Positions 2,713 through 48,876 of a DNA stretch of 64,000 nt are shown piece by piece. The notes beneath the pieces were generated by a model. It was not told the DNA's origin and searched no databases. It saw only the letters and a program-made list of their open reading frames with translations. Both the position numbers and the translations under genes were made by a program. The stretch lies in sequence record NC_014467.1; one strand, 5' to 3'. This DNA is from Escherichia phage RB16. The first letter of the stretch is position 1. Each line of letters begins with the position of its first letter.

Positions 2713-3234
2713 TCACGAACTCTCGCCGCGATGTTCGATGTGCTCCGTGATATCCTCAACAGTCTTATCAAGGTCCAGAGATTCAGCATCTTCCTTGATA
2801 ATAGTCAAATCTACAGGCAGTGTCAACAGTCTTTTCACTCCGCTGATATCTTCGATACGAGAATCATACGCAAGGGTAACATGCGGTTTGTAGTTGTCAA
2901 AATCGTAAGTCGCTCCGGCATCCATCGCATCATTGAAACGGCTATGCAGATAATCAGACTCCAGAACACCGACGATAGTGTTACCGTATTTTGTGTCCCA
3001 CTTCTCTACGTCAACCAGTCGGGCAGGTTCAGAGATACCAGAGGCAGGGAACAAATCAACCGTCTTACGGCTATACACAATCGTTGTATGAAGTTTTTCA
3101 GCAGACACCGGATTCTCTACACCCAGAAGTTTTTGCACTTGTGCAAGCGCTTCACAGGAAGCCTGATCGAACTTCGCACACATATAGATCCCCGAATCAA
3201 CTACGGGTTTCGCAACTTCAATAAAACTTTTCAT
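2713..3234 (-). CDS. 57B: gp57B-like protein (assigned by position next to gp57A/gp1)
   Basis: Synteny with T4 57B-57A-1-3 order; size 173 aa; no motif recognised. Confidence 0.45.
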   Translation of the reverse strand: MKSFIEVAKPVVDSGIYMCAKFDQASCEALAQVQKLLGVENPVSAEKLHTTIVYSRKTVDLFPASGISEPARLVDVEKWDTKYGNTIVGVLESDYLHSRFNDAMDAGATYDFDNYKPHVTLAYDSRIEDISGVKRLLTLPVDLTIIKEDAESLDLDKTVEDITEHIEHRGESS

Positions 3235-5027: not shown

Positions 5028-5813
5028 ATGAAATCATTCAAAGAACTACTGTCTGAATCTGTTCAGACCAAAAAATTTGCTAAAACTGTTGATCTGGTTG
5101 ACCGTGGTAATGCTTCAAAAGGTCAGATCGGTTTCCTGCACTTTGCACACGGTGCTGATTACGATGTGTATGCGCCGGACTCTCACGATCTCGCCTACTT
5201 CGGTAAAGGTGTTGTTCGCCTGAAAGGTAAAACCACTGGTAAAACTCAGGCTGCATATGTTGACTGGGCGAAAGGTACGGTTTCTTTCTATAGCGGCGAT
5301 CCGGCAGATGACCTGAAATTCGACAAGCCAGCGAAATTCAAAGGCGCTTCCCTGTACAAAGAAGCCGAAGAAAATCTGGATCTGTATAATCAGTTAGCGG
5401 AAGACTTCGAAATTGATGTACCGATGGATGAAGCACTGGTGAAAGGTAAGGTGTACAAGCTCCCAAGCAACGATATGCGCTTGCTGTATACCGGACGTAC
5501 CAAAAACAAGCCTACAGGTGAATACGCTGTGTTTACGGTTGTAGATGCCTCCGGTAAGCCTCGTCTGGTATCGGGTAAACGATTTACCCAGGAATACAAA
5601 GGCGATATGCTGTCTAAACTGGTTCTCGCTGAATCGGAAGATCTGAACGAGGCCGCTAAAGGCATTCGCGAAAAAGTTATTGCGGTGTTGGTGAAGCGCG
5701 GGTTTAACGAAAAAGATGCAGAAAAGATGGTTGATAAAAACCTAAAAGATGCGATGAAAGTTCGCCCTGGTGCAACTCCAGGAAAACTAGCGGAAATCGT
5801 GAGCACCTTGTAA
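5028..5813 (+). CDS. internal-protein-like basic protein with capsid-targeting leader (Ip-like)
   Basis: N-terminus MKSFKELLSE matches the T4 internal-protein leader pattern MKTYQEFIAE cleaved by gp21 after L/I-x-E; Lys-rich 262-aa product; strong terminator downstream; ORF track gives a longer ORF from 4932. Confidence 0.6.
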   Translation: MKSFKELLSESVQTKKFAKTVDLVDRGNASKGQIGFLHFAHGADYDVYAPDSHDLAYFGKGVVRLKGKTTGKTQAAYVDWAKGTVSFYSGDPADDLKFDKPAKFKGASLYKEAEENLDLYNQLAEDFEIDVPMDEALVKGKVYKLPSNDMRLLYTGRTKNKPTGEYAVFTVVDASGKPRLVSGKRFTQEYKGDMLSKLVLAESEDLNEAAKGIREKVIAVLVKRGFNEKDAEKMVDKNLKDAMKVRPGATPGKLAEIVSTL

Positions 5814-5817
5814 AAAT

Positions 5818-5848
5818 AAAGCCCCTTCCTTTCGGTTGGGGCTTTTTT
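5818..5848. terminator. bidirectional rho-independent terminator (AAAGCCCC-loop-GGGGCTTT + T7), copy 1
   Basis: Hairpin between convergent Ip-like gene (+) and gp2 (-); near-identical hairpin at 42925-42958. Confidence 0.75.
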
Positions 5849-6702
5849 TAATATCGGTTCCAAACTTTTTTCGCGCTGTATGGTTTTCCTTTCGACTGGA
5901 AAGCCTGTGTAGGCAACCAAACTGCTTTCGCCCAGTCTTTTGGGGCTATCTCTGCAAGAGGTGATCGCAGGTGCGCAGGTAAGTATGCTTTGATCATTTG
6001 ATCTGCACCGCGCATCCCTTTCACGTTGTTCCAGTTGATTTTCAATCTGGTTTTGTTTGAAAGGCGATCTGTTGATCCGTATCCACGTTTCAAAAGTTCT
6101 TCTAAAAACTCTTGACGGGCTTTAGGTGGCGCATAGTGCAAGTTCAAACCGTACAGAACTAAATTACCCGCTTTAGAACGTCCTGAACCCAGGAAGATGA
6201 TTAGCGGGAACCGATCCCAGTATGGTAGGGTATCTTTGTATTTCGCGTCATACACGAACGTATACAATCGCCCTGTTGCTGGTTTCGCTACCCTGTGCGT
6301 TTTGATGCTGGTTTTGATGAAGTCACCAAACCAATCGGTTGAATCCTTTTGACGTTTCGCAGCAGAAACACCCACTGTAATTTTCCGTAAACTATTTCGG
6401 AAGTCGTTGATGATGTCAACTGTATGTTTTTTGCGATAGTCATTGCGTTTTCGTCGGGCTTCGGTTTCTGCTGTACGTCGCGAGATTTCATCATCAATCT
6501 GCTGTTTATAGCGGTGCATAGACTTTGTGAACGTTGCGTATGCAATCCCGTTTTCGTCCGCGAATTTTTTGGCTGTCATGCCTTTTAATTTTGCGCGTCT
6601 GAATTTAACACCCAGTTCAACCCATTCACCAAGTTTTCGCTTCGGTGGCGGTTTCGGCTTATCTTCTTCTGCGATGATCTCAAACTCAAATATAAAACTC
6701 AT
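5848..6702 (-). CDS. 2: gp2 DNA end protector protein
   Basis: 284 aa, position and size as T4 gp2; basic N-terminus. Confidence 0.7.
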   Translation of the reverse strand: MSFIFEFEIIAEEDKPKPPPKRKLGEWVELGVKFRRAKLKGMTAKKFADENGIAYATFTKSMHRYKQQIDDEISRRTAETEARRKRNDYRKKHTVDIINDFRNSLRKITVGVSAAKRQKDSTDWFGDFIKTSIKTHRVAKPATGRLYTFVYDAKYKDTLPYWDRFPLIIFLGSGRSKAGNLVLYGLNLHYAPPKARQEFLEELLKRGYGSTDRLSNKTRLKINWNNVKGMRGADQMIKAYLPAHLRSPLAEIAPKDWAKAVWLPTQAFQSKGKPYSAKKVWNRY

Positions 6703-7388
6703 AATTCCCTCCGTTTACACTTATCACCATGCCAACGTTTAAACATACCCGGCCTGAAACTATTACCGCAGTATTGGCATTCCATTTTCTCTATATTTGA
6801 AACTGCTTCCCTTATGCGTATCTTTTGTTCTTCTGTTCGGGGTTTCCCCTTTCTAGCATCTGCTGATTTTTTTACTGCATCAGGGGGCATAGTTTTTCCT
6901 GAACATGAGATAGAAATTTTTTGTTTATGTTCTTCTGATAGAGATCTCCCTACCTTAGCGTTTCTCATCTTTTCTATAGACTGTTCGTTGAATAGCCCTG
7001 GTCGAGTTTTACCTTTCAATGGATTGACCCACCCATCTTTCATTTTGCGAGATTTACCTATTTTTGCTTTACTCATTTTCTCTCGCGTTTCGCTGGATGC
7101 TGTTGTGTATGATACCCCACCCTCCCCACCAATTTTTAAATTGTATGTGTGTTCCGATAGCACGAACTCGCGATTGACAAGTTCCTTTTCTTTATCATAC
7201 ATTTCAGAAGGGGTGTCAAACACATACAATATACTTTTTGTGAAGTTGTGTATGCCATATTTGGTTTGTGCTTTCAATAAAAGTTTACCAGACCCCATAT
7301 ACGAATCATTCACATCTGTGGTTGCATGTGCGCCGATATAAATTTTATCGTTGATATTGTTTTTAATCTGATAGACTAAATATTTCAT
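6699..7388 (-). CDS. GIY-YIG homing endonuclease (Seg-like) inserted between genes 2 and 4
   Basis: N-terminal KYLVYQIKNNINDKIYIGAHATT GIY-YIG motif; C-terminal CQYCGNSF zinc finger; start chosen at the Met before the motif, which abuts the gp4 stop (7385-7387) in ATGA form. Confidence 0.8.
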   Translation of the reverse strand: MKYLVYQIKNNINDKIYIGAHATTDVNDSYMGSGKLLLKAQTKYGIHNFTKSILYVFDTPSEMYDKEKELVNREFVLSEHTYNLKIGGEGGVSYTTASSETREKMSKAKIGKSRKMKDGWVNPLKGKTRPGLFNEQSIEKMRNAKVGRSLSEEHKQKISISCSGKTMPPDAVKKSADARKGKPRTEEQKIRIREAVSNIEKMECQYCGNSFRPGMFKRWHGDKCKRREL

Positions 7389-7858
7389 TTCTCGTACCCT
7401 TTCCATCCAAAAACACGTTTGAGGGTGTCTTCGGTTATGATCTTGAACTCCCATCCTTTTGCTTTACATGCAGCATTGGCGGCTTTCCATTTGTCTATAT
7501 TTATGGAGTAAACATAGAGAGCATCAACAAATTTCTTTTTGTTGTGAACGTTGTTGTTCGCTGGCTTAGGTGGGGGCAATGTTTCTTTCATCGGTTTGAC
7601 TTCCCATAGGTAGGTCACACCGTTATCCATCTCAACATAAAAATCCATGAAGTAACGCCGTCTTTTACCGTCTGCGTTGCTGAAATAAGGTATCACAACC
7701 TCTTCACTGTTCCAGCGTTTCACATGCGGATTCCTGTCAAGCCAGTTCATTATATATTTTTCCCAGCTTGACCGATACGTTATCTTTCGAGGATCGCCTT
7801 TATATTTTGTTATGTTCTGGGGCATAAAAGACCCCTTGTACGTCTGTCTTCCAGCCAT
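7385..7858 (-). CDS. 4: gp4 head completion protein
   Basis: 157 aa, position relative to genes 2 and 53. Confidence 0.7.
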   Translation of the reverse strand: MAGRQTYKGSFMPQNITKYKGDPRKITYRSSWEKYIMNWLDRNPHVKRWNSEEVVIPYFSNADGKRRRYFMDFYVEMDNGVTYLWEVKPMKETLPPPKPANNNVHNKKKFVDALYVYSINIDKWKAANAACKAKGWEFKIITEDTLKRVFGWKGYEK

Positions 7859-7902
7859 TATAGATCCTAAATATAGTAAACATTAGATAGGGGAAATTAC
7901 AA

Positions 7903-8457
7903 ATGTTATTCTCGTTCTTTCCACCAGTTGATTACAAAGGCACACCGACTACTGATATTTTTCGGGATTATCGTTTTTACTTTAATCGCGTTATCAGAAA
8001 TTATAAGCCACGTACTTATCAACTGACCGGATCACTAAGACCCGAACAATTAGCTGAAACGCTATACGGAAACCAACAATATTATTGGGTTATCCTGATG
8101 CTCAATGATAACTATGACCCGTTTTACGGATGGATTACAGATCAGGAAACCGCTTATCAATGCGCGGTGCAGCGTTATTCAAAAGTAGGTGGTGAACAGG
8201 TTCTTTATCATATGGATGGGAAAAACAACCGATATTACAATCTGGTTGAAGATCCTAACAACCCTGGTCATTGGTATGACAAAGGTGATAAAGATATGCG
8301 GTATTTGCAATATCAAGGAACATTAGTCCCTATTGATATTTATGAAGATGCAGTGTTGAAAAATGAATCAATGCGAACCATCAAAATTATTAACCCTTCG
8401 GATATTCAATCGTTTGTAAGCGATTATATCAAGGAAATGGAAAAGGCGAATCTATGA
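7903..8457 (+). CDS. 53: gp53 baseplate wedge subunit
   Basis: 184 aa, immediately upstream of gp5 with 4-nt overlap. Confidence 0.8.
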   Translation: MLFSFFPPVDYKGTPTTDIFRDYRFYFNRVIRNYKPRTYQLTGSLRPEQLAETLYGNQQYYWVILMLNDNYDPFYGWITDQETAYQCAVQRYSKVGGEQVLYHMDGKNNRYYNLVEDPNNPGHWYDKGDKDMRYLQYQGTLVPIDIYEDAVLKNESMRTIKIINPSDIQSFVSDYIKEMEKANL

Positions 8458-10220
8458 AATTCGGTGGAAATATGCATTCCCCTTTCTTTGAGGGGGTGGT
8501 CGAAAACGTTGATGATCCTCGTCTACTGGGGCGTGTTCAGGTGCGTGTATTTGGTGAGCATCCGGCACAGAAACAAAAATCTGAAACTATCGGTATTCCG
8601 GTTGAGGAATTGCCGTGGATGATGCCTATTCAGGATATTCGCAGCGCCGCTATTTCCGGTGTTGGTTTTTCTCCGACTGGTATTACGCGCGGTAGTTTCG
8701 TTATCGGTTACTGGCGCGATAAATGGCACCAGGACGGCGTTATACTGGGAACCTTTGCTGGTGAGTACCGAGAGAAACCGGACACCCAGAAAGGCTTCTG
8801 TGACCCGTTTGGTGAGTATCCTCGTTATGTAGGTAACGATGTCAACGTACTGGCTCGCGGTGGTGCAGAAGGACGCGGTTCTTCAAGCGTGATTATTCGT
8901 GATGCTAACAGTTCGTTAGCTGTCAATCCAGATGATCGCCCACTTGATGAGATTCCAGAAGATAACCGACCTGATACTGGTGGGTTTACGATAGAAAAAA
9001 TGATCCGTGGTGATGAAGGTATTAGATTGACGTGGTATTATGATGTTAAAGGTTATACCATCGGGATCGGACACTTTTTCTTAACCGCACCACAAGGAAC
9101 AGACCCAGCAGTTGTTAACGCGGCGTTATCTAGACAAATTGGCAGAACGGTTACTGGTGTTCCTGGATCAATCACTGCTGATGAAGCGAGTGTTTTATTT
9201 CAGCAGGATTTAGCTAAAGTTCATAACGATATTCAGAATAATAGCAAAGTTCGGGAAGTGTATGTGACGTTAAACCGTCCTCGTCAAATGGCTATTGAAA
9301 ATATGTGCTTCCAAATGGGCGTTGGCGGTGTCGCCAAATTTACTAATGCTCTGGCTGCTATGAAGCGTCAGGACTGGAAAACCGCTTACAACGAACTGCG
9401 AAACTCTACATGGGCTAACCAGACGCCAGGACGTTCTTCACGCGTATCTAAAATCGTGCTGACGGGCAACCTTGAATCATACGGTGTTCAGGTTCCAGAT
9501 CCAGAAGGACGTTCATTGAGTGCTGCTTATAATGCGGTGGTTCTGCAAACAAGCAACCCAGAAGATCCTTTTGTTCCTGGTGATACCCGCGTAATGTTCG
9601 AGGAACCTAAATCGGCATACGCTGCTGAATATCCATACAACATGGTATTCGAATCCCGTTCTGGACACATTCAGGAATTCGACGACACCCCAGGCTTTGA
9701 GCGTTACAACCGCGTTCACCCAGCAGGATCATACGAAGAAATTCGTCCTGATGGAACCCGTGTTGTTAAAATCGTTGGTGATGATTATCTGATTGTTCAA
9801 CAGGGAAGAAAGGTAAACATCAAAGGTAATTTACAAGTAGTGATCGAAGGTGATGCGTTCATTTACAATATGGGTAACGTTCAACAGACTGTCGATGGAA
9901 ACGTAACTGAGTTCGTGCGCGGTAACGTAAACCAGACTGTCGAGGGTGAATATGTTGGGCGTATCAAAGGTAACGCAGAATTAACCGTCGAAAAAGATGC
10001 TACTGTAAACGTGGATCAGAATTTAATGGCTAACGTTAAACAGAATGCAACTGTTAACGTAACCGAAGATGCAACTGTTACCGCAAAAAATGCGATGATG
10101 GATATTGAACAAGACTTCGATTTAAACGCGAACAATATCACAATGGTTGCCCGACAAAATACACTAATCGATTCCGGTTCTCTGACTAAGATTACTGGCG
10201 GGACAGTCCAGGTAGGTTAA
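8454..10220 (+). CDS. 5: gp5 baseplate hub subunit and tail lysozyme
   Basis: Central T4-lysozyme-like domain (EGIRLTWYYDVKGYTIGIGHF...FQMGVGGVAKFTN...WANQTPGRSSRV) and C-terminal beta-helix repeats (VNQTVEGEYVG, NATVNVTEDATV). Confidence 0.95.
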   Translation: MKFGGNMHSPFFEGVVENVDDPRLLGRVQVRVFGEHPAQKQKSETIGIPVEELPWMMPIQDIRSAAISGVGFSPTGITRGSFVIGYWRDKWHQDGVILGTFAGEYREKPDTQKGFCDPFGEYPRYVGNDVNVLARGGAEGRGSSSVIIRDANSSLAVNPDDRPLDEIPEDNRPDTGGFTIEKMIRGDEGIRLTWYYDVKGYTIGIGHFFLTAPQGTDPAVVNAALSRQIGRTVTGVPGSITADEASVLFQQDLAKVHNDIQNNSKVREVYVTLNRPRQMAIENMCFQMGVGGVAKFTNALAAMKRQDWKTAYNELRNSTWANQTPGRSSRVSKIVLTGNLESYGVQVPDPEGRSLSAAYNAVVLQTSNPEDPFVPGDTRVMFEEPKSAYAAEYPYNMVFESRSGHIQEFDDTPGFERYNRVHPAGSYEEIRPDGTRVVKIVGDDYLIVQQGRKVNIKGNLQVVIEGDAFIYNMGNVQQTVDGNVTEFVRGNVNQTVEGEYVGRIKGNAELTVEKDATVNVDQNLMANVKQNATVNVTEDATVTAKNAMMDIEQDFDLNANNITMVARQNTLIDSGSLTKITGGTVQVG

Positions 10221-12318: not shown

Positions 12319-12996
12319 ATGAATTACGATAGGATATATAAAGCTCTTATAGATAAGCGGAGGAAAACTCCGCTTAAAGACGGATATAAGGAACATCATC
12401 ACATCATTCCTAAATCTATGGGCGGTAGTGATGATTTTGATAATATGGTGTATTTGACAGCGAGAGAACATTTCGTTGCGCATCTTTTACTCGCTCGTAT
12501 ACATGGTGGTAAGATGTGGTTTGCTGTTGCTATGATGTGTGGGCGTGGATCAAGTAGCGCGAAAGGCGTTGTCCCTACTTCTCGAATATATGAGTTAGCC
12601 AAAAAACGGGTAGCCAATGAAAGAAGTATATTGTTTTCTGGGAAATTACATCCATTATACGGAAAGCCTTGTACAGAACAACGAAGAAAACGCATAGCTG
12701 AAGGACGTAAAGGGAAAACGCATACTCAGGAAACGAAACAGAAAATGTCTGAATCGAAGAAAGGATATAAACATACTCAGGAGACGAAACAGAAAATGTC
12801 TGAGTCACGGAAGAGACAAACACCTCCTACTCTGGGTAAAAAGTTACCTTCTCCATCAATCGAAAAAAGAAAGAAACTTAGTGAGGCTATTAAAAATCAG
12901 CCAATCATCAAATGTCCATATTGCGGGTTAGAAAGTAACAGCAAAGGAAATATGGTGAGGTTTCATTTCGACAACTGCAAATATAGGAAACCATGA
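12319..12996 (+). CDS. HNH homing endonuclease with tandem NUMOD3-like DNA-binding motifs
   Basis: HNH core EHHHIIPKSMGGSDDFDNMVYLTAREHFVAH; repeats GKTHTQETKQKMSESKKG / YKHTQETKQKMSESRKR; C-terminal CPYCG zinc finger. Confidence 0.85.
   Translation: MNYDRIYKALIDKRRKTPLKDGYKEHHHIIPKSMGGSDDFDNMVYLTAREHFVAHLLLARIHGGKMWFAVAMMCGRGSSSAKGVVPTSRIYELAKKRVANERSILFSGKLHPLYGKPCTEQRRKRIAEGRKGKTHTQETKQKMSESKKGYKHTQETKQKMSESRKRQTPPTLGKKLPSPSIEKRKKLSEAIKNQPIIKCPYCGLESNSKGNMVRFHFDNCKYRKP
12721..12815 (+). repeat. tandem direct repeat (about 51 bp x2) encoding the NUMOD3 motifs
   Basis: CATACTCAGGAAACGAAACAGAAAATGTCTGAATC... repeated with few substitutions. Confidence 0.7.
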
Positions 12997-39741: not shown

Positions 39742-39749
39742 TATAAATA
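39742..39749 (+). promoter_or_regulatory. T4-type late promoter motif TATAAATA upstream of the SegD-like gene
   Basis: Exact TATAAATA 24 nt before ATG at 39773. Confidence 0.55.
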
Positions 39750-39772
39750 GTGAAAACATTCGAGGCTATATT

Positions 39773-40411
39773 ATGAAACACATCATTTATAAAATAACAA
39801 ACACCATCAATAACAAAATATATGTTGGTGCTCACTCAACCGAAGATATCAACGATTCATACATGGGTTCCGGTATTGCAATCAAAAAAGCGCAAAAGAA
39901 ATATGGTATGGAACATTTCACAAAAGAAATACTTCATGTATTTGATACCCGTGAAGAAATGTATGAGAAGGAAAGGGAAATAGTTGATATTGAATTCATA
40001 AATCGACCAGATACATATAATGCTGGTATTGGTGGTAAAGGTGCTCCAATGGCGTTGATTGGATGGAGTGATGAACAACGCAAGCTGATTTCCGAAAATA
40101 CTTCGAAAGCTATGCAAACTCCAGAAATGCGCGAACGCCTTTCAAAAATAAAAACAGGGAAGAAGCAATCAGAAGAATCCAACAGGAAGCGTTCAGAGAC
40201 TATCAAAGCTATGTACAAGGGTTCTGCATTCGACAGAACCGGATCTAAGCTCACAGACGCGCACAAGGCCAAAATAAGCCGTTCTGTGTCGATAGATGGA
40301 GTTGTTTACGCAAGCGGTTCCGATGCTTCTAAAGCGTTGGGGCTTTCTCGATCTGGCCTTGATTACCGTTTAAAGAGTGACAAATTTCCTGAATGGAAAT
40401 TCGTTGCATAA
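39773..40411 (+). CDS. segD: GIY-YIG homing endonuclease (SegD-like) between genes 23 and 24
   Basis: N-terminal HIIYKITNTINNKIYVGAHST GIY-YIG motif; same position as T4 segD; clear paralogue of the endonuclease at 6699-7388. Confidence 0.85.
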   Translation: MKHIIYKITNTINNKIYVGAHSTEDINDSYMGSGIAIKKAQKKYGMEHFTKEILHVFDTREEMYEKEREIVDIEFINRPDTYNAGIGGKGAPMALIGWSDEQRKLISENTSKAMQTPEMRERLSKIKTGKKQSEESNRKRSETIKAMYKGSAFDRTGSKLTDAHKAKISRSVSIDGVVYASGSDASKALGLSRSGLDYRLKSDKFPEWKFVA

Positions 40412-48042: not shown

Positions 48043-48876
48043 TCAACCCCATGTGTCTGTTTTAGGTGCGTATGCTGCAACTTTAGCCACTAATTCCTTA
48101 TCAAGCTGATCGATAGATTTCTGTGCTTTGCCTTTTGCCTTAACTTTGATGTAGTTAGACTTGACAACGAACATACCGCCTTTGTCAGATTTCTTGATTT
48201 CGCTATCGATACCAACTTTGTTAAAGCTGATCCAGATATCACCATCCATGTATTGTTTCAGTGAATCACCCATGTTCAGGATCTTAGCCATAGTAAGCGC
48301 TGCTCCTTCGTGGGTATCCATAAGGATCTCTTTAGGAACCACACGGTCACGTTTCAGGTTCTGCTGCATAGCAATATGAACATCGTTCATTACCCAAACG
48401 ATATGGATGTTTTCTTTATGATATCCCAGCGTTTCAACGTCACGGGCAATGCTTGCCAGCTTGCTCATGCTTTTTAGGGTAACGTCGAAAATCAGGTTTG
48501 GTTTGCGGTCTTCTGGTGCTGCTGCAATACCAGCATAAACACGCGCCTGGTTTTTGTTGGATACGTTGAAAACGTCTGCGATCACATGATGCAGGGTTGC
48601 CACGTTATCCGGGTTTTTCAAGTTCATGGTTTTAACATCATGACCAGTTTTAGCTTTGATTTCTGCCGCCAGTTTGGTGCTACCCATTACCAGCTTTTTC
48701 AGTGCGTCAACGTCCAGTGTGATTCCTTCGATACCTAACAGTTTTTCGAGGGTAAAACCTTTACCGGAACCCGCACCGCCAGCCAGGATCACAACCTGAC
48801 CAAATTTAGGATATGCCTTGCCGCCAAACGTAATCAACGCTTCGTCAAGGGATACAAAGTCTTTGAATGATTTCAT
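48043..48876 (-). CDS. P-loop-like nucleotide-binding protein (277 aa), possible kinase
   Basis: Glycine-rich VVILAGGAGSGKGF near N-terminus (atypical Walker A, no S/T after Lys). Confidence 0.5.
   Translation of the reverse strand: MKSFKDFVSLDEALITFGGKAYPKFGQVVILAGGAGSGKGFTLEKLLGIEGITLDVDALKKLVMGSTKLAAEIKAKTGHDVKTMNLKNPDNVATLHHVIADVFNVSNKNQARVYAGIAAAPEDRKPNLIFDVTLKSMSKLASIARDVETLGYHKENIHIVWVMNDVHIAMQQNLKRDRVVPKEILMDTHEGAALTMAKILNMGDSLKQYMDGDIWISFNKVGIDSEIKKSDKGGMFVVKSNYIKVKAKGKAQKSIDQLDKELVAKVAAYAPKTDTWG

What the first reader, a model, noticed from the sequence alone, without database searches (positions are those of the whole stretch)
6699..7388. GIY-YIG homing endonuclease wedged between genes 2 and 4
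A Seg-like endonuclease gene (KYLVYQIKNNINDKIYIGA motif, C-terminal zinc finger) starts one codon after the gp4 stop in an ATGA overlap and ends 4 nt into gp2. T4 has no gene at this position. It is a paralogue of the SegD-like gene at 39773-40411.
Basis: seen in the sequence. Interest (0 to 1): 0.4.

Follow-up and report, generated by a model that had tools for sequence, protein, structure and literature searches.

The report
Free-standing Seg homing endonuclease, gp4/gp2 junction
This is an ordinary, already annotated selfish gene of phage RB16: a GIY-YIG "Seg-type" homing endonuclease inserted exactly between head-completion gene 4 and DNA-end-protector gene 2, with clear sequence signs that it moved between phages recently.

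Summary
Window 6699-7388 (minus strand) is an intact 229-aa ORF joined to gp4 and gp2 by ATGA overlaps.

- **Family:** it passes the Pfam GIY-YIG and NUMOD3 thresholds. Its AlphaFold model matches the I-TevI catalytic domain. It ends in a conserved C-x2-C-x12-H-x3-C finger.
- **Already known:** the protein is identical to RB16 ADJ55491.1, annotated "putative Seg-like homing endonuclease". The window is phage RB16.
- **Rare in the genus:** of 199 related phage records, only Cronobacter phage GAP161 has the insert. In relatives without the endonuclease gene (HEG-minus), 679 nt are replaced by 12 nt (CAATAAATACCC).
- **Recent transfer:** RB16 and GAP161 are identical over 888 nt (6692-7579), though their flanks differ by about 9%. 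On the gp2 side RB16 matches insert-free Lw1/KKP_3664 right up to the insert edge.
- **Linked gp4 allele:** the last ~125 nt of gp4 carry an allele found only with the insert. It includes a late-promoter-like CATAAATA.
- **Same site in other genera:** homologues 38-43% identical, with the same finger, occupy this junction in five other Straboviridae lineages.
- **Relation to the second seg gene:** the SegD-like gene at 39773-40411 shares only the N-terminal two-thirds. It ends in an I-TevI-type helix-turn-helix.

Interest is low. The cleavage site is inferred, not shown.

The parts
6699..7388 (-). seg-like ORF, 229 aa plus stop (RB16 ADJ55491.1)
7113..7388 (-). GIY-YIG catalytic domain, residues 1 to about 92 (beta-beta-alpha-beta-alpha-alpha)
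   Evidence: Pfam PF01541 at residues 2-72. The family profile matches I-TevI 1MK0 over positions 2-92, E 0.003. AF2 pLDDT is above 95 and Foldseek top hits are 1MK0/1LN0. All family-invariant residues are present: Y6, Y17, G19, H21, E67, N83.
6798..7097 (-). Linker of about five NUMOD3-like helical repeats, residues about 98-197
   Evidence: Pfam NUMOD3 26.4 bits. Predicted helices at 99-109, 135-145, 152-162, 169-179 and 186-197. Weak profile match to the I-TevI DNA-binding domain 1I3J, E 0.029.
6717..6779 (-). C-terminal CCHC zinc-finger-like motif (C204, C207, H220, C224; ...KRWHGDKC...)
   Evidence: Read from the sequence. Conserved in all gp4/gp2-located homologues and other finger-type Segs. 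Predicted hairpin plus helix. Metal binding was not tested.
6718..7396 (-). 679-nt block present in RB16 and GAP161, replaced by 12 nt (CAATAAATACCC) in relatives that lack the gene
   Evidence: Junction alignment and anchor positions. The empty site is invariant in Lw1, KKP_3664, Miller, leB and Olmo.
6692..7579 (.). 888-nt block 100% identical to GAP161, embedded in flanks about 9% divergent from GAP161
   Evidence: Mismatch lists: the bounding mismatches are at 6691 and 7580. Binned profile.
7397..7520 (-). Endonuclease-linked allele of the gp4 3' end: 26 substitutions against Lw1/KKP_3664 (all five HEG-minus phages compared carry the alternative allele), five amino-acid changes, and a C-terminus YEK* instead of Q*
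   Evidence: At 99% identity or more this tract occurs only in GAP161; all other records are at or below 87.7%.
7498..7505 (-). CATAAATA, one mismatch from the T4 late-promoter core TATAAATA, 110 nt upstream of the seg ATG
   Evidence: The homologous position in metagenomic locus L005 is a perfect TATAAATA and HEG-minus alleles read GTAAACAT. Promoter function is inferred only.
6707..6712 (-). gp2 Shine-Dalgarno GGAGGG, lying inside the last codons of seg
   Evidence: Read from the sequence. The same arrangement is seen in all seven gp4/gp2 Seg loci.
7385..7858 (-). gp4 head completion gene (upstream neighbour and inferred target gene)
5848..6702 (-). gp2 DNA end protector gene (downstream neighbour). 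Only five differences from HEG-minus KKP_3664 over 6000-6717, and none from 6374 to the insert edge
39773..40411 (+). Second seg gene of the window (SegD-like, RB16 ADJ55519.1), homologous in the N-terminal two-thirds only

Best explanation
This is a free-standing Seg-type GIY-YIG homing endonuclease gene of phage RB16. It sits precisely after the last conserved gp4 codons (...W-K-G) and before the gp2 start.

Shown:
- It is an intact ORF with a GIY-YIG catalytic fold, a NUMOD3 helical linker and a conserved terminal CCHC finger.
- It is present or absent among close relatives.
- It travels as an 888-nt cassette that is identical in two phages whose backbones are otherwise about 9% apart.
- The cassette includes a distinctive recoded version of the last ~125 nt of gp4.

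Inferred mechanism:
- The gene is transcribed with gp4 and gp2. It may also be transcribed from a late-promoter-like CATAAATA inside the gp4 3' end. It is translated by coupling through the ATGA overlap.
- In a mixed infection with a relative that lacks the gene, the enzyme cuts that genome in or next to the gp4 3' end or the gp4-gp2 spacer.
- Recombinational repair from the RB16 copy then copies seg together with the adjacent gp4 tail. This is intron-less homing with co-conversion.
- RB16 is protected from its own enzyme because the junction is split by the insert and the gp4 tail is recoded.
- The last seg codons supply the gp2 ribosome-binding site, so loss of the element is costly.
For: - **Family and fold:**
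- **Identity to annotated RB16, GAP161 and ENC19 proteins:**
- **Presence/absence:** only GAP161 among 199 matching phage records carries the insert. The empty site is invariant in five phages.
- **Lateral transfer:** window and GAP161 are identical over 6692-7579, with about 9% divergence outside. On the gp2 side the window has only five differences from HEG-minus KKP_3664 over 6000-6717, and none from 6374 to the insert edge. GAP161's gp2 start reads like those of leB and Olmo. So in two different backbones the exchange boundary lies within 26 nt of the insert.
- **Linked gp4 allele:** it is found only with the gene and clusters in the last 125 nt.
- **Same pattern in Mosigvirus:** p000v differs from AV109 by 33 mismatches in the last 120 nt of gp4, against 13 in the first 330 nt.
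- **Self-immunity argument:** because RB16's gp2 5' end is identical to that of HEG-minus phages, a target confined to gp2 would also be cut in RB16 (inference).
- **Purifying selection:** against the 64%-identical homologue at the same site, dN is 0.27 and dS about 2.2, which is saturated.
- **Deep conservation of the site:**
- **T4 precedents:** promoters in the 3' end of the upstream gene, overlap coupling, co-conversion and marker exclusion are described in Edgell et al. 2010, PMC2988022.
Against: - No cleavage assay or cross exists, so activity and target position are both inferred.
- Phage mosaicism is common here without any endonuclease. Two further blocks nearly identical to GAP161 (at most 2 mismatches per 50 nt) lie in gp5 at 8447-8846 and 8947-9396, so an identity block alone does not prove homing.
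- The same pattern fits loss of the gene from the Lw1/KKP lineage by recombination with a phage that lacks it.
- The counterpart of catalytic Arg27 of I-TevI could not be aligned.
- CATAAATA is one mismatch from the late-promoter consensus, and its enrichment in the window is only modest (9 observed against 3.3 expected).
- The gene is rare: only RB16, GAP161 and ENC19 carry it, against roughly 200 genus records without it. That is unexpected for an efficient homing element.
Confidence: 0.85

Rival explanations
1. The gene is an inactive or decaying relic. It is retained only because its 3' end carries the gp2 ribosome-binding site and its removal would disturb gp4/gp2 expression.
For: It is rare in the genus. 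The gp2 Shine-Dalgarno lies inside its last codons. The Arg27 equivalent was not identified.
Against: The ORF is full length and keeps every family-invariant residue. The catalytic-domain model is highly confident. dN is far below dS against the 64%-identical homologue at the same site. The cassette is identical in two diverged backbones, which implies recent spread.
Confidence: 0.08
2. The 888-nt block shared with GAP161 arose by ordinary homologous recombination between co-infecting phages. The endonuclease played no part in it.
For: Other blocks nearly identical to GAP161 lie close by in gp5, where there is no endonuclease gene.
Against: In both RB16 and GAP161 the gp2-side boundary falls within 26 nt of the insert edge. 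The linked gp4 allele is never found without the gene among 192 records. The same asymmetric divergence next to the insert recurs in Mosigvirus.
Confidence: 0.15
3. The protein has been recruited mainly for competition between phages (localised marker exclusion of co-infecting relatives) or as a DNA-binding autorepressor, rather than for its own spread.
For: T4 Seg enzymes cause marker exclusion, and I-TevI doubles as an autorepressor at a late promoter (PMC2988022). A late-promoter-like sequence lies upstream of seg, and another (AATAAATA) sits in the empty site.
Against: Nothing here separates this role from homing; the two are compatible. No operator-like repeat of the empty site was shown.
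Confidence: 0.1

Closest known systems
T4 SegD, SegB, SegA, SegC and SegE (free-standing GIY-YIG homing endonucleases of phage T4)
   Same: The N-terminal catalytic domain is 43-52% identical (52% to SegD over residues 1-111, E 6e-35). The gene is free-standing between conserved genes, in the same orientation as its neighbours, overlaps the upstream gene, and is polymorphic among relatives.
   Different: T4 has no seg gene at the gene 4/gene 2 junction. None of T4 SegA-F carries the C-terminal C-x2-C...KRWHxDxC finger. Activity has been shown for most T4 Segs but not for this gene.
I-TevI (td intron endonuclease; PDB 1MK0/1LN0 catalytic domain, 1I3J DNA-binding domain)
   Same: Same catalytic fold (Foldseek probability 1.00, TM 0.67). 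Same modular logic: a catalytic domain, an extended NUMOD3-type linker and a zinc-binding motif.
   Different: It is not intron-encoded. TIGR01453 scores 48.9 bits, below its 56.05 cut-off. I-TevI has its finger inside the linker followed by a helix-turn-helix; here the finger is the last module and there is no HTH.
Seg-like genes at the gp4/gp2 junction of Acj61 (Lasallevirus), p000v/HX01 (Mosigvirus), Yersinia phage P8, STP4-a (Gelderlandvirus) and RZH (Karamvirus), plus metagenomic P0002
   Same: Same insertion point after the gp4 ...[WYF]-K-G codons. Same overlap with the gp2 start and the gp2 Shine-Dalgarno inside the last codons. Same finger signature...P-[AG]-[PM]-[YF]-KRWHG[DE]NC[KR]. 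They form one clade in my NJ tree.
   Different: They are only 38-43% identical (64% for P0002). Bootstrap support for including the RB16/P0002 pair in the clade is moderate (0.70). All are annotated only as putative.
RB16 SegD-like gene (window 39773-40411; ADJ55519.1) and KP27/T4 SegD
   Same: Homologous GIY-YIG domain and first part of the linker (41% identity over 181 aa).
   Different: It lies at a different site (gp23/gp24) and ends in an I-TevI-type HTH (PF20987). It is widespread in the genus (24 members in its 90% cluster). It groups with SegD rather than with this gene.

Membership tests
GIY-YIG nuclease superfamily | GIY and YIG motifs about 10 residues apart at the N-terminus, and a Pfam PF01541 match above the gathering score | tested here: met
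   The sequence reads LVY(4-6)...IYIG(16-19). PF01541 scores 23.9 bits against a 22.6 cut-off.
GIY-YIG nuclease superfamily | Conserved catalytic Glu and Asn (E75 and N90 of I-TevI) | tested here: met
   E67 and N83 are invariant across 41 family members. They fall in the stretch of the profile alignment that corresponds to I-TevI 2-92.
GIY-YIG nuclease superfamily | Conserved Arg (R27 of I-TevI) | tested here: inconclusive
   The R27 region of I-TevI falls opposite an insertion in the profile alignment. The Seg subfamily has H21/D28/Y30 invariant instead.
GIY-YIG nuclease superfamily | Alpha/beta fold with a three-stranded antiparallel sheet | tested here: met
   AF2 predicts strands 2-10, 16-23 and 49-57 with flanking helices at pLDDT above 95. 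Foldseek top hits are 1MK0/1LN0 with TM 0.64-0.67.
Free-standing Seg-type homing endonuclease genes of T4-like phages | Free-standing ORF between conserved phage genes, not inside an intron | tested here: met
   It lies between gp4 and gp2. No Rfam family, including group I introns, is found in 5800-7950.
Free-standing Seg-type homing endonuclease genes of T4-like phages | Sequence relationship to T4 Seg proteins | tested here: met
   BLASTP gives 43-52% identity to SegA-E over the catalytic domain, with E from 2.5e-24 to 6e-35.
Free-standing Seg-type homing endonuclease genes of T4-like phages | Presence/absence polymorphism with a precise empty site in close relatives | tested here: met
Free-standing Seg-type homing endonuclease genes of T4-like phages | Transfer together with flanking markers (co-conversion) | tested here: met
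   An 888-nt identical cassette includes 183 nt of gp4. The linked allele is exclusive to carriers of the gene. This is a pattern consistent with co-conversion, not a cross.
Free-standing Seg-type homing endonuclease genes of T4-like phages | Site-specific double-strand cleavage of the allele that lacks the gene | not testable with these tools
   Needs an in-vitro cleavage assay or phage crosses.
I-TevI-type architecture (TIGR01453 group I intron endonuclease) | Whole-protein score above the NCBIfam cut-off, and a C-terminal I-TevI helix-turn-helix | tested here: not met
   TIGR01453 scores 48.9 bits, below 56.05. There is no PF20987 hit in this protein, whereas the SegD-like gene has it at 1.7e-27.
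SegD orthologue | Location between genes 23 and 24, and full-length similarity to T4 SegD | tested here: not met
   It lies between genes 4 and 2. Similarity to SegD stops at residue 111. The tree places it apart from SegD.
Zinc finger (CCHC) | Four conserved metal ligands with knuckle geometry, and metal binding | tested here: inconclusive
   The ligands are conserved and a hairpin plus helix is predicted. No Pfam model matched, ligand geometry was not measured, and metal binding is not testable here.

The most novel reading that the evidence does not exclude
One Seg lineage, defined by a terminal CCHC finger in place of the usual helix-turn-helix, has kept the same nucleotide-precise site across at least six Straboviridae lineages: five named genera plus Yersinia phage P8. 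The site lies after the gp4 ...[WYF]-K-G codons and before the gp2 ATG. The unit that moves is not the gene alone. It is the gene plus a recoded ~125-nt tail of the essential gp4 gene. That tail would both remove the enzyme's target and bring the element's own late promoter. The gene would also replace a probable gp2 late promoter (AATAAATA in the empty site) and supply the gp2 ribosome-binding site, making itself hard to lose.
Probability: 0.4. Interest if true: 0.4.

Novelty: already known. Interest (0 to 1): 0.2.

Why it matters
By itself it matters little. The gene has been annotated in RB16 since 2010 and behaves like a textbook free-standing homing endonuclease gene. Its modest value is as a clean natural example.

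- The donor-type cassette (RB16, GAP161) and several empty-site relatives (Lw1, KKP_3664, Miller) are all sequenced, and RB16 and Lw1 both grow on E. coli. The target site, co-conversion gradient and self-immunity could therefore be measured directly.
- The recurrence of the same site and the same finger in distant T4-like genera would allow a comparative study. It could show how a homing endonuclease follows a conserved structural gene across hosts.
- It could also show whether a terminal zinc finger can stand in for the helix-turn-helix as the site-recognition module.

Tried and rejected
- **Single-sequence search of solved structures.** It aligned only the first 21 residues to I-TevI (E 0.5), which was not informative. 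The family profile and the fold search settled the question.
- **MAFFT alignment of the junction with the insert included.** It misplaced the short empty-site sequences. I replaced it with exact anchor matching.
- **Sigma-70 promoter and terminator scan.** It found nothing above shuffled expectation between gp4, seg and gp2, so I treat the three genes as one transcription unit.
- **Group I intron or other RNA.** Nothing was found.
- **RB16 accession HM134276.** It is not in the phage collection. Identity with RB16 was shown instead by exact protein look-up.
- **Literature searches.** I found no paper describing a seg gene between genes 2 and 4; only general reviews turned up.
- **CNNNG cleavage motif.** An I-TevI-type motif (CGTTG, 32-36 nt upstream of the junction) is present in empty-site alleles and destroyed in carriers. 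I do not claim it as the cut site, because nothing tests it.
- **Direction of the RB16/Lw1 difference.** I could not decide from these sequences whether RB16 gained the gene or Lw1 lost it.
Full report
**1. Observation**

- The ORF described is real and the coordinates are exact. On the minus strand, the ATG at 7388 opens a 229-codon frame ending with the TGA at 6701-6699.
- The upstream gene (7385-7858, minus strand) is gp4, the head completion protein. The downstream gene (5848-6702, minus strand) is gp2, the DNA end protector. Both names follow the annotation of near-identical relatives.
- Both junctions are ATGA overlaps.
- The frame is also open further upstream, with another ATG at 7406.
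- The N-terminus reads MKYLVYQIKNNINDKIYIGA.
- The C-terminus reads C204-x2-C207-x12-H220-x3-C224.

**2. What the protein is**

- Pfam gives GIY-YIG at 23.9 bits (gathering score 22.6) and NUMOD3 at 26.4 bits (20.4).
- PHROG_314 'homing endonuclease' matches at 1e-50.
- NCBIfam TIGR01453 'group I intron endonuclease' matches at 8e-13 but scores below its cut-off.
- A profile of 41 homologues matches the I-TevI catalytic domain over its whole length, E 0.003. It matches the I-TevI DNA-binding domain weakly, E 0.029.
- The AlphaFold2 model has mean pLDDT 81.9, and above 95 for residues 1-85.
  - It predicts a beta-beta-alpha-beta-alpha-alpha domain.
  - A low-confidence hinge follows at residues 90-129.
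  - Then come five short helices that coincide with NUMOD3-like repeats.
  - The model ends in a hairpin plus helix over the Cys/His motif.
- Its only credible solved-structure matches are I-TevI 1MK0 and 1LN0 (probability 1.00, target TM 0.64-0.67).
- All residues invariant in the family are present.
- No RNA family, and so no group I intron, is detected around the gene. It is free-standing.

**3. Identity of the window and prior knowledge**

- The exact protein is ADJ55491.1 / YP_003858487.1 of Escherichia phage RB16. It is also AFC22295.1 of Cronobacter phage GAP161 and UIW12653.1 of Enterobacter phage ENC19. All are named 'putative Seg-like homing endonuclease, GIY-YIG family' or 'homing endonuclease'.
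- The exact sequence of the second seg protein (39773-40411) is carried by RB16 (ADJ55519.1; its UniRef100 entry lists RB16 only). The window is therefore RB16.
- RB16 itself is missing from the phage collection that was searched.
- Petrov et al. 2010 list two seg-like GIY-YIG genes for RB16 and none for RB43 (PMC2993671).
- The gene is therefore already known as an annotation. I found no experimental study of it.

**4. Insertion anatomy**

- Of 199 phage records that match the gp2-gp4 region, only GAP161 (GenBank and RefSeq copies) contains the insert. The rest match in two pieces that skip it.
- Exact anchors define the shared flanks. They end at window 6717 and resume at 7397.
- Window 6718-7396 (679 nt) stands in place of 12 nt, CAATAAATACCC.
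- The empty site GGATGGAAAGGG-CAATAAATACCC-TAAACGGAGGGAATTATGAG is identical in Lw1, KKP_3664, Miller, leB and Olmo.
- Three consequences follow:
  - gp4 ends ...GWKGYEK* instead of ...GWKGQ*.
  - The gp2 Shine-Dalgarno GGAGGG (6707-6712) now lies inside the last seg codons (K-R-R-E-L).
  - An AATAAATA sequence about 20 nt upstream of the gp2 ATG in the empty site is removed by the insertion. It may be a gp2 late promoter.
- T4 genes 4 and 2 overlap directly (TAATG) with nothing between them.

**5. Evidence of recent movement**

- RB16 and GAP161 are identical from 6692 to 7579 (888 nt). The bounding mismatches are at 6691 and 7580. Outside this block they differ at roughly 9% of positions.
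- On the gp2 side, RB16 has only five differences from insert-free KKP_3664 over 6000-6717, and none from 6374 to the insert edge.
- GAP161's gp2 start reads like those of leB and Olmo. So in two different backbones the exchange boundary on the gp2 side lies within 26 nt of the insert.
- On the gp4 side, the cassette extends 183 nt.
- Within the cassette, the last ~125 nt of gp4 (7397-7520) carry 26 substitutions relative to Lw1/KKP_3664, in three clusters. All five insert-free phages examined carry the alternative allele there. The changes include five amino-acid replacements.
- This allele is found at 99% identity or more only in GAP161. All other records are at or below 87.7%.
- A diverged homologue sits at the same site in metagenomic Pseudotevenvirus-like contigs (P0002, 64% identical). 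It shares part of this allele, including TATAAATA where RB16 has CATAAATA.
- dN (0.27) is far below dS (about 2.2, saturated) between the RB16 and P0002 genes.

**6. Inference on target and immunity**

- RB16's gp2 5' end is identical to that of insert-free phages. A target confined to gp2 would therefore also be present in RB16.
- The differences that could protect RB16 are the split junction and the recoded gp4 tail.
- The asymmetry of the cassette (183 nt on the gp4 side, 26 nt or fewer on the gp2 side) also points to a break on the gp4 side or at the junction.
- This matches how T4 SegF, SegG and SegE target the neighbouring gene, and how co-conversion produces localised marker exclusion (PMC2988022).
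- It remains an inference. Ordinary mosaicism is frequent here: two further blocks nearly identical to GAP161 lie in gp5.
- The RB16/Lw1 difference could equally reflect loss from the Lw1 lineage.

**7. Expression (inferred)**

- No terminator or sigma-70-like promoter separates gp4, seg and gp2. The overlaps suggest translational coupling.
- TATAAATA is enriched in the window (9 observed against 2.6 expected) and typically lies 15-45 nt upstream of late genes.
- CATAAATA occurs at 7498-7505, 110 nt upstream of the seg ATG. Another copy lies 22 nt upstream of the gp3 start.
- In T4, endonuclease-specific promoters lie in the 3' end of the upstream gene for segA, segG, mobC and mobD (PMC2988022).

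**8. Wider distribution**

Full-length homologues (38-43% identical) with the same terminal finger occupy the same junction in five other lineages:

| Phage | Genus |
|---|---|
| Acj61 | Lasallevirus |
| p000v | Mosigvirus |
| Yersinia phage P8 | not assigned in the record |
| STP4-a | Gelderlandvirus |
| RZH | Karamvirus |

- In all of them seg starts within about 8 nt of the gp4 stop (in RZH the annotated start lies 12 nt upstream of it).
- In all of them the last codons hold the gp2 Shine-Dalgarno, and the stop overlaps or abuts the gp2 ATG.
- Finger-type Segs also occur at other sites. VH7D has one between regA and gene 62, and Ah1 has one in its tRNA cluster.
- In a neighbour-joining tree the gp4/gp2 Segs are monophyletic with bootstrap 0.70. 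The five outside Pseudotevenvirus group at 0.99.
- The window's SegD-like gene groups with KP27 SegD and T4 SegD.
- In Mosigvirus the gene is also rare: 6 records carry it against roughly 150 Mosigvirus-level matches without it.
- p000v shows the same dense recoding of the gp4 tail relative to AV109. There are 33 mismatches in the last 120 nt against 13 in the first 330 nt.

**9. The 'paralogue' claim**

- The SegD-like gene is homologous over the catalytic domain and the first part of the linker (41% identity over 181 aa).
- It ends in an I-TevI-type helix-turn-helix (PF20987, 1.7e-27). This gene ends in the finger instead.
- None of T4 SegA-F has this finger.
- The two genes belong to the same family but differ in their DNA-recognition ends, as expected for different target sites.

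**10. Verdict**

- The gene is an already annotated, uncharacterised member of the Seg family.
- The added value here is the precise empty site, the 888-nt cassette with its linked gp4 allele, and the recurrence of the same site and finger in other genera.
- None of this is surprising for a homing endonuclease gene, so interest is low.

Noticed in passing
window 39742-40411: The SegD-like gene has a perfect late-promoter core TATAAATA 24 nt upstream of its ATG. It lies on the same strand as gp23/gp24, whereas T4 segD is on the opposite strand. It carries an I-TevI-type HTH, and its 90%-identity cluster has 24 members across many Pseudotevenvirus phages. It is therefore far more widespread than the gp4/gp2 seg gene.
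   Followed up: partly
window 12319-12996 (+): A 225-aa ORF among the baseplate genes matches HNH (24.7 bits) and NUMOD3 (56.3 bits). It is probably another free-standing (Mob-like) homing endonuclease gene of RB16.
   Followed up: partly
window 8447-8846 and 8947-9396: Two further blocks in gp5 are nearly identical to GAP161 (at most 2 mismatches per 50 nt) but 10-25% divergent from Lw1/KKP_3664. No endonuclease gene lies next to them. This shows that mosaic exchange is common in this genome region.
   Followed up: no
empty site of HEG-minus relatives (e.g. L002 2419-2430, reverse strand): The 12 nt removed by the insertion (CAATAAATACCC) contain AATAAATA about 20 nt upstream of the gp2 ATG. 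This may be a late promoter for gp2 that the insertion deletes.
   Followed up: no
window 7406-7388 and L005 4001-4022: An in-frame upstream ATG (MERVREMKY...) lies inside the conserved gp4 codons GGATGGAAAGG. In the metagenomic homologue the usual ATG is ATA, so the called start is this host-provided ATG (an in-frame GTG three codons downstream is an alternative).
   Followed up: partly
window 7385-7858 (-): gp4 (head completion protein) matches Pfam Tn7_TnsA-like_N (PF08722) at 6.8e-23. That is an endonuclease-like fold in a structural protein.
   Followed up: no
window 2713-3234 (-): A 173-aa ORF matches the anti-CBASS protein Acb1 (PF23474, 3.3e-48).
   Followed up: no
window 48043-48876 (-) and 56240-57091 (+): One ORF has a Zeta-toxin-like P-loop match (2.6e-07). 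The other is a D12-class N6-adenine DNA methyltransferase (4e-35).
   Followed up: no
window 5028-5813 (+): A 261-aa ORF on the opposite strand between gp3 and gp2 has no Pfam match. It is annotated as a conserved hypothetical protein in GAP161 and Lw1.
   Followed up: no
L016 1501-2070 and L017 1501-2118: Full-length finger-type Seg homologues in Vibrio phage VH7D (between regA and gene 62) and Aeromonas phage Ah1 (inside the tRNA cluster) have no annotated CDS in their GenBank records.
   Followed up: partly
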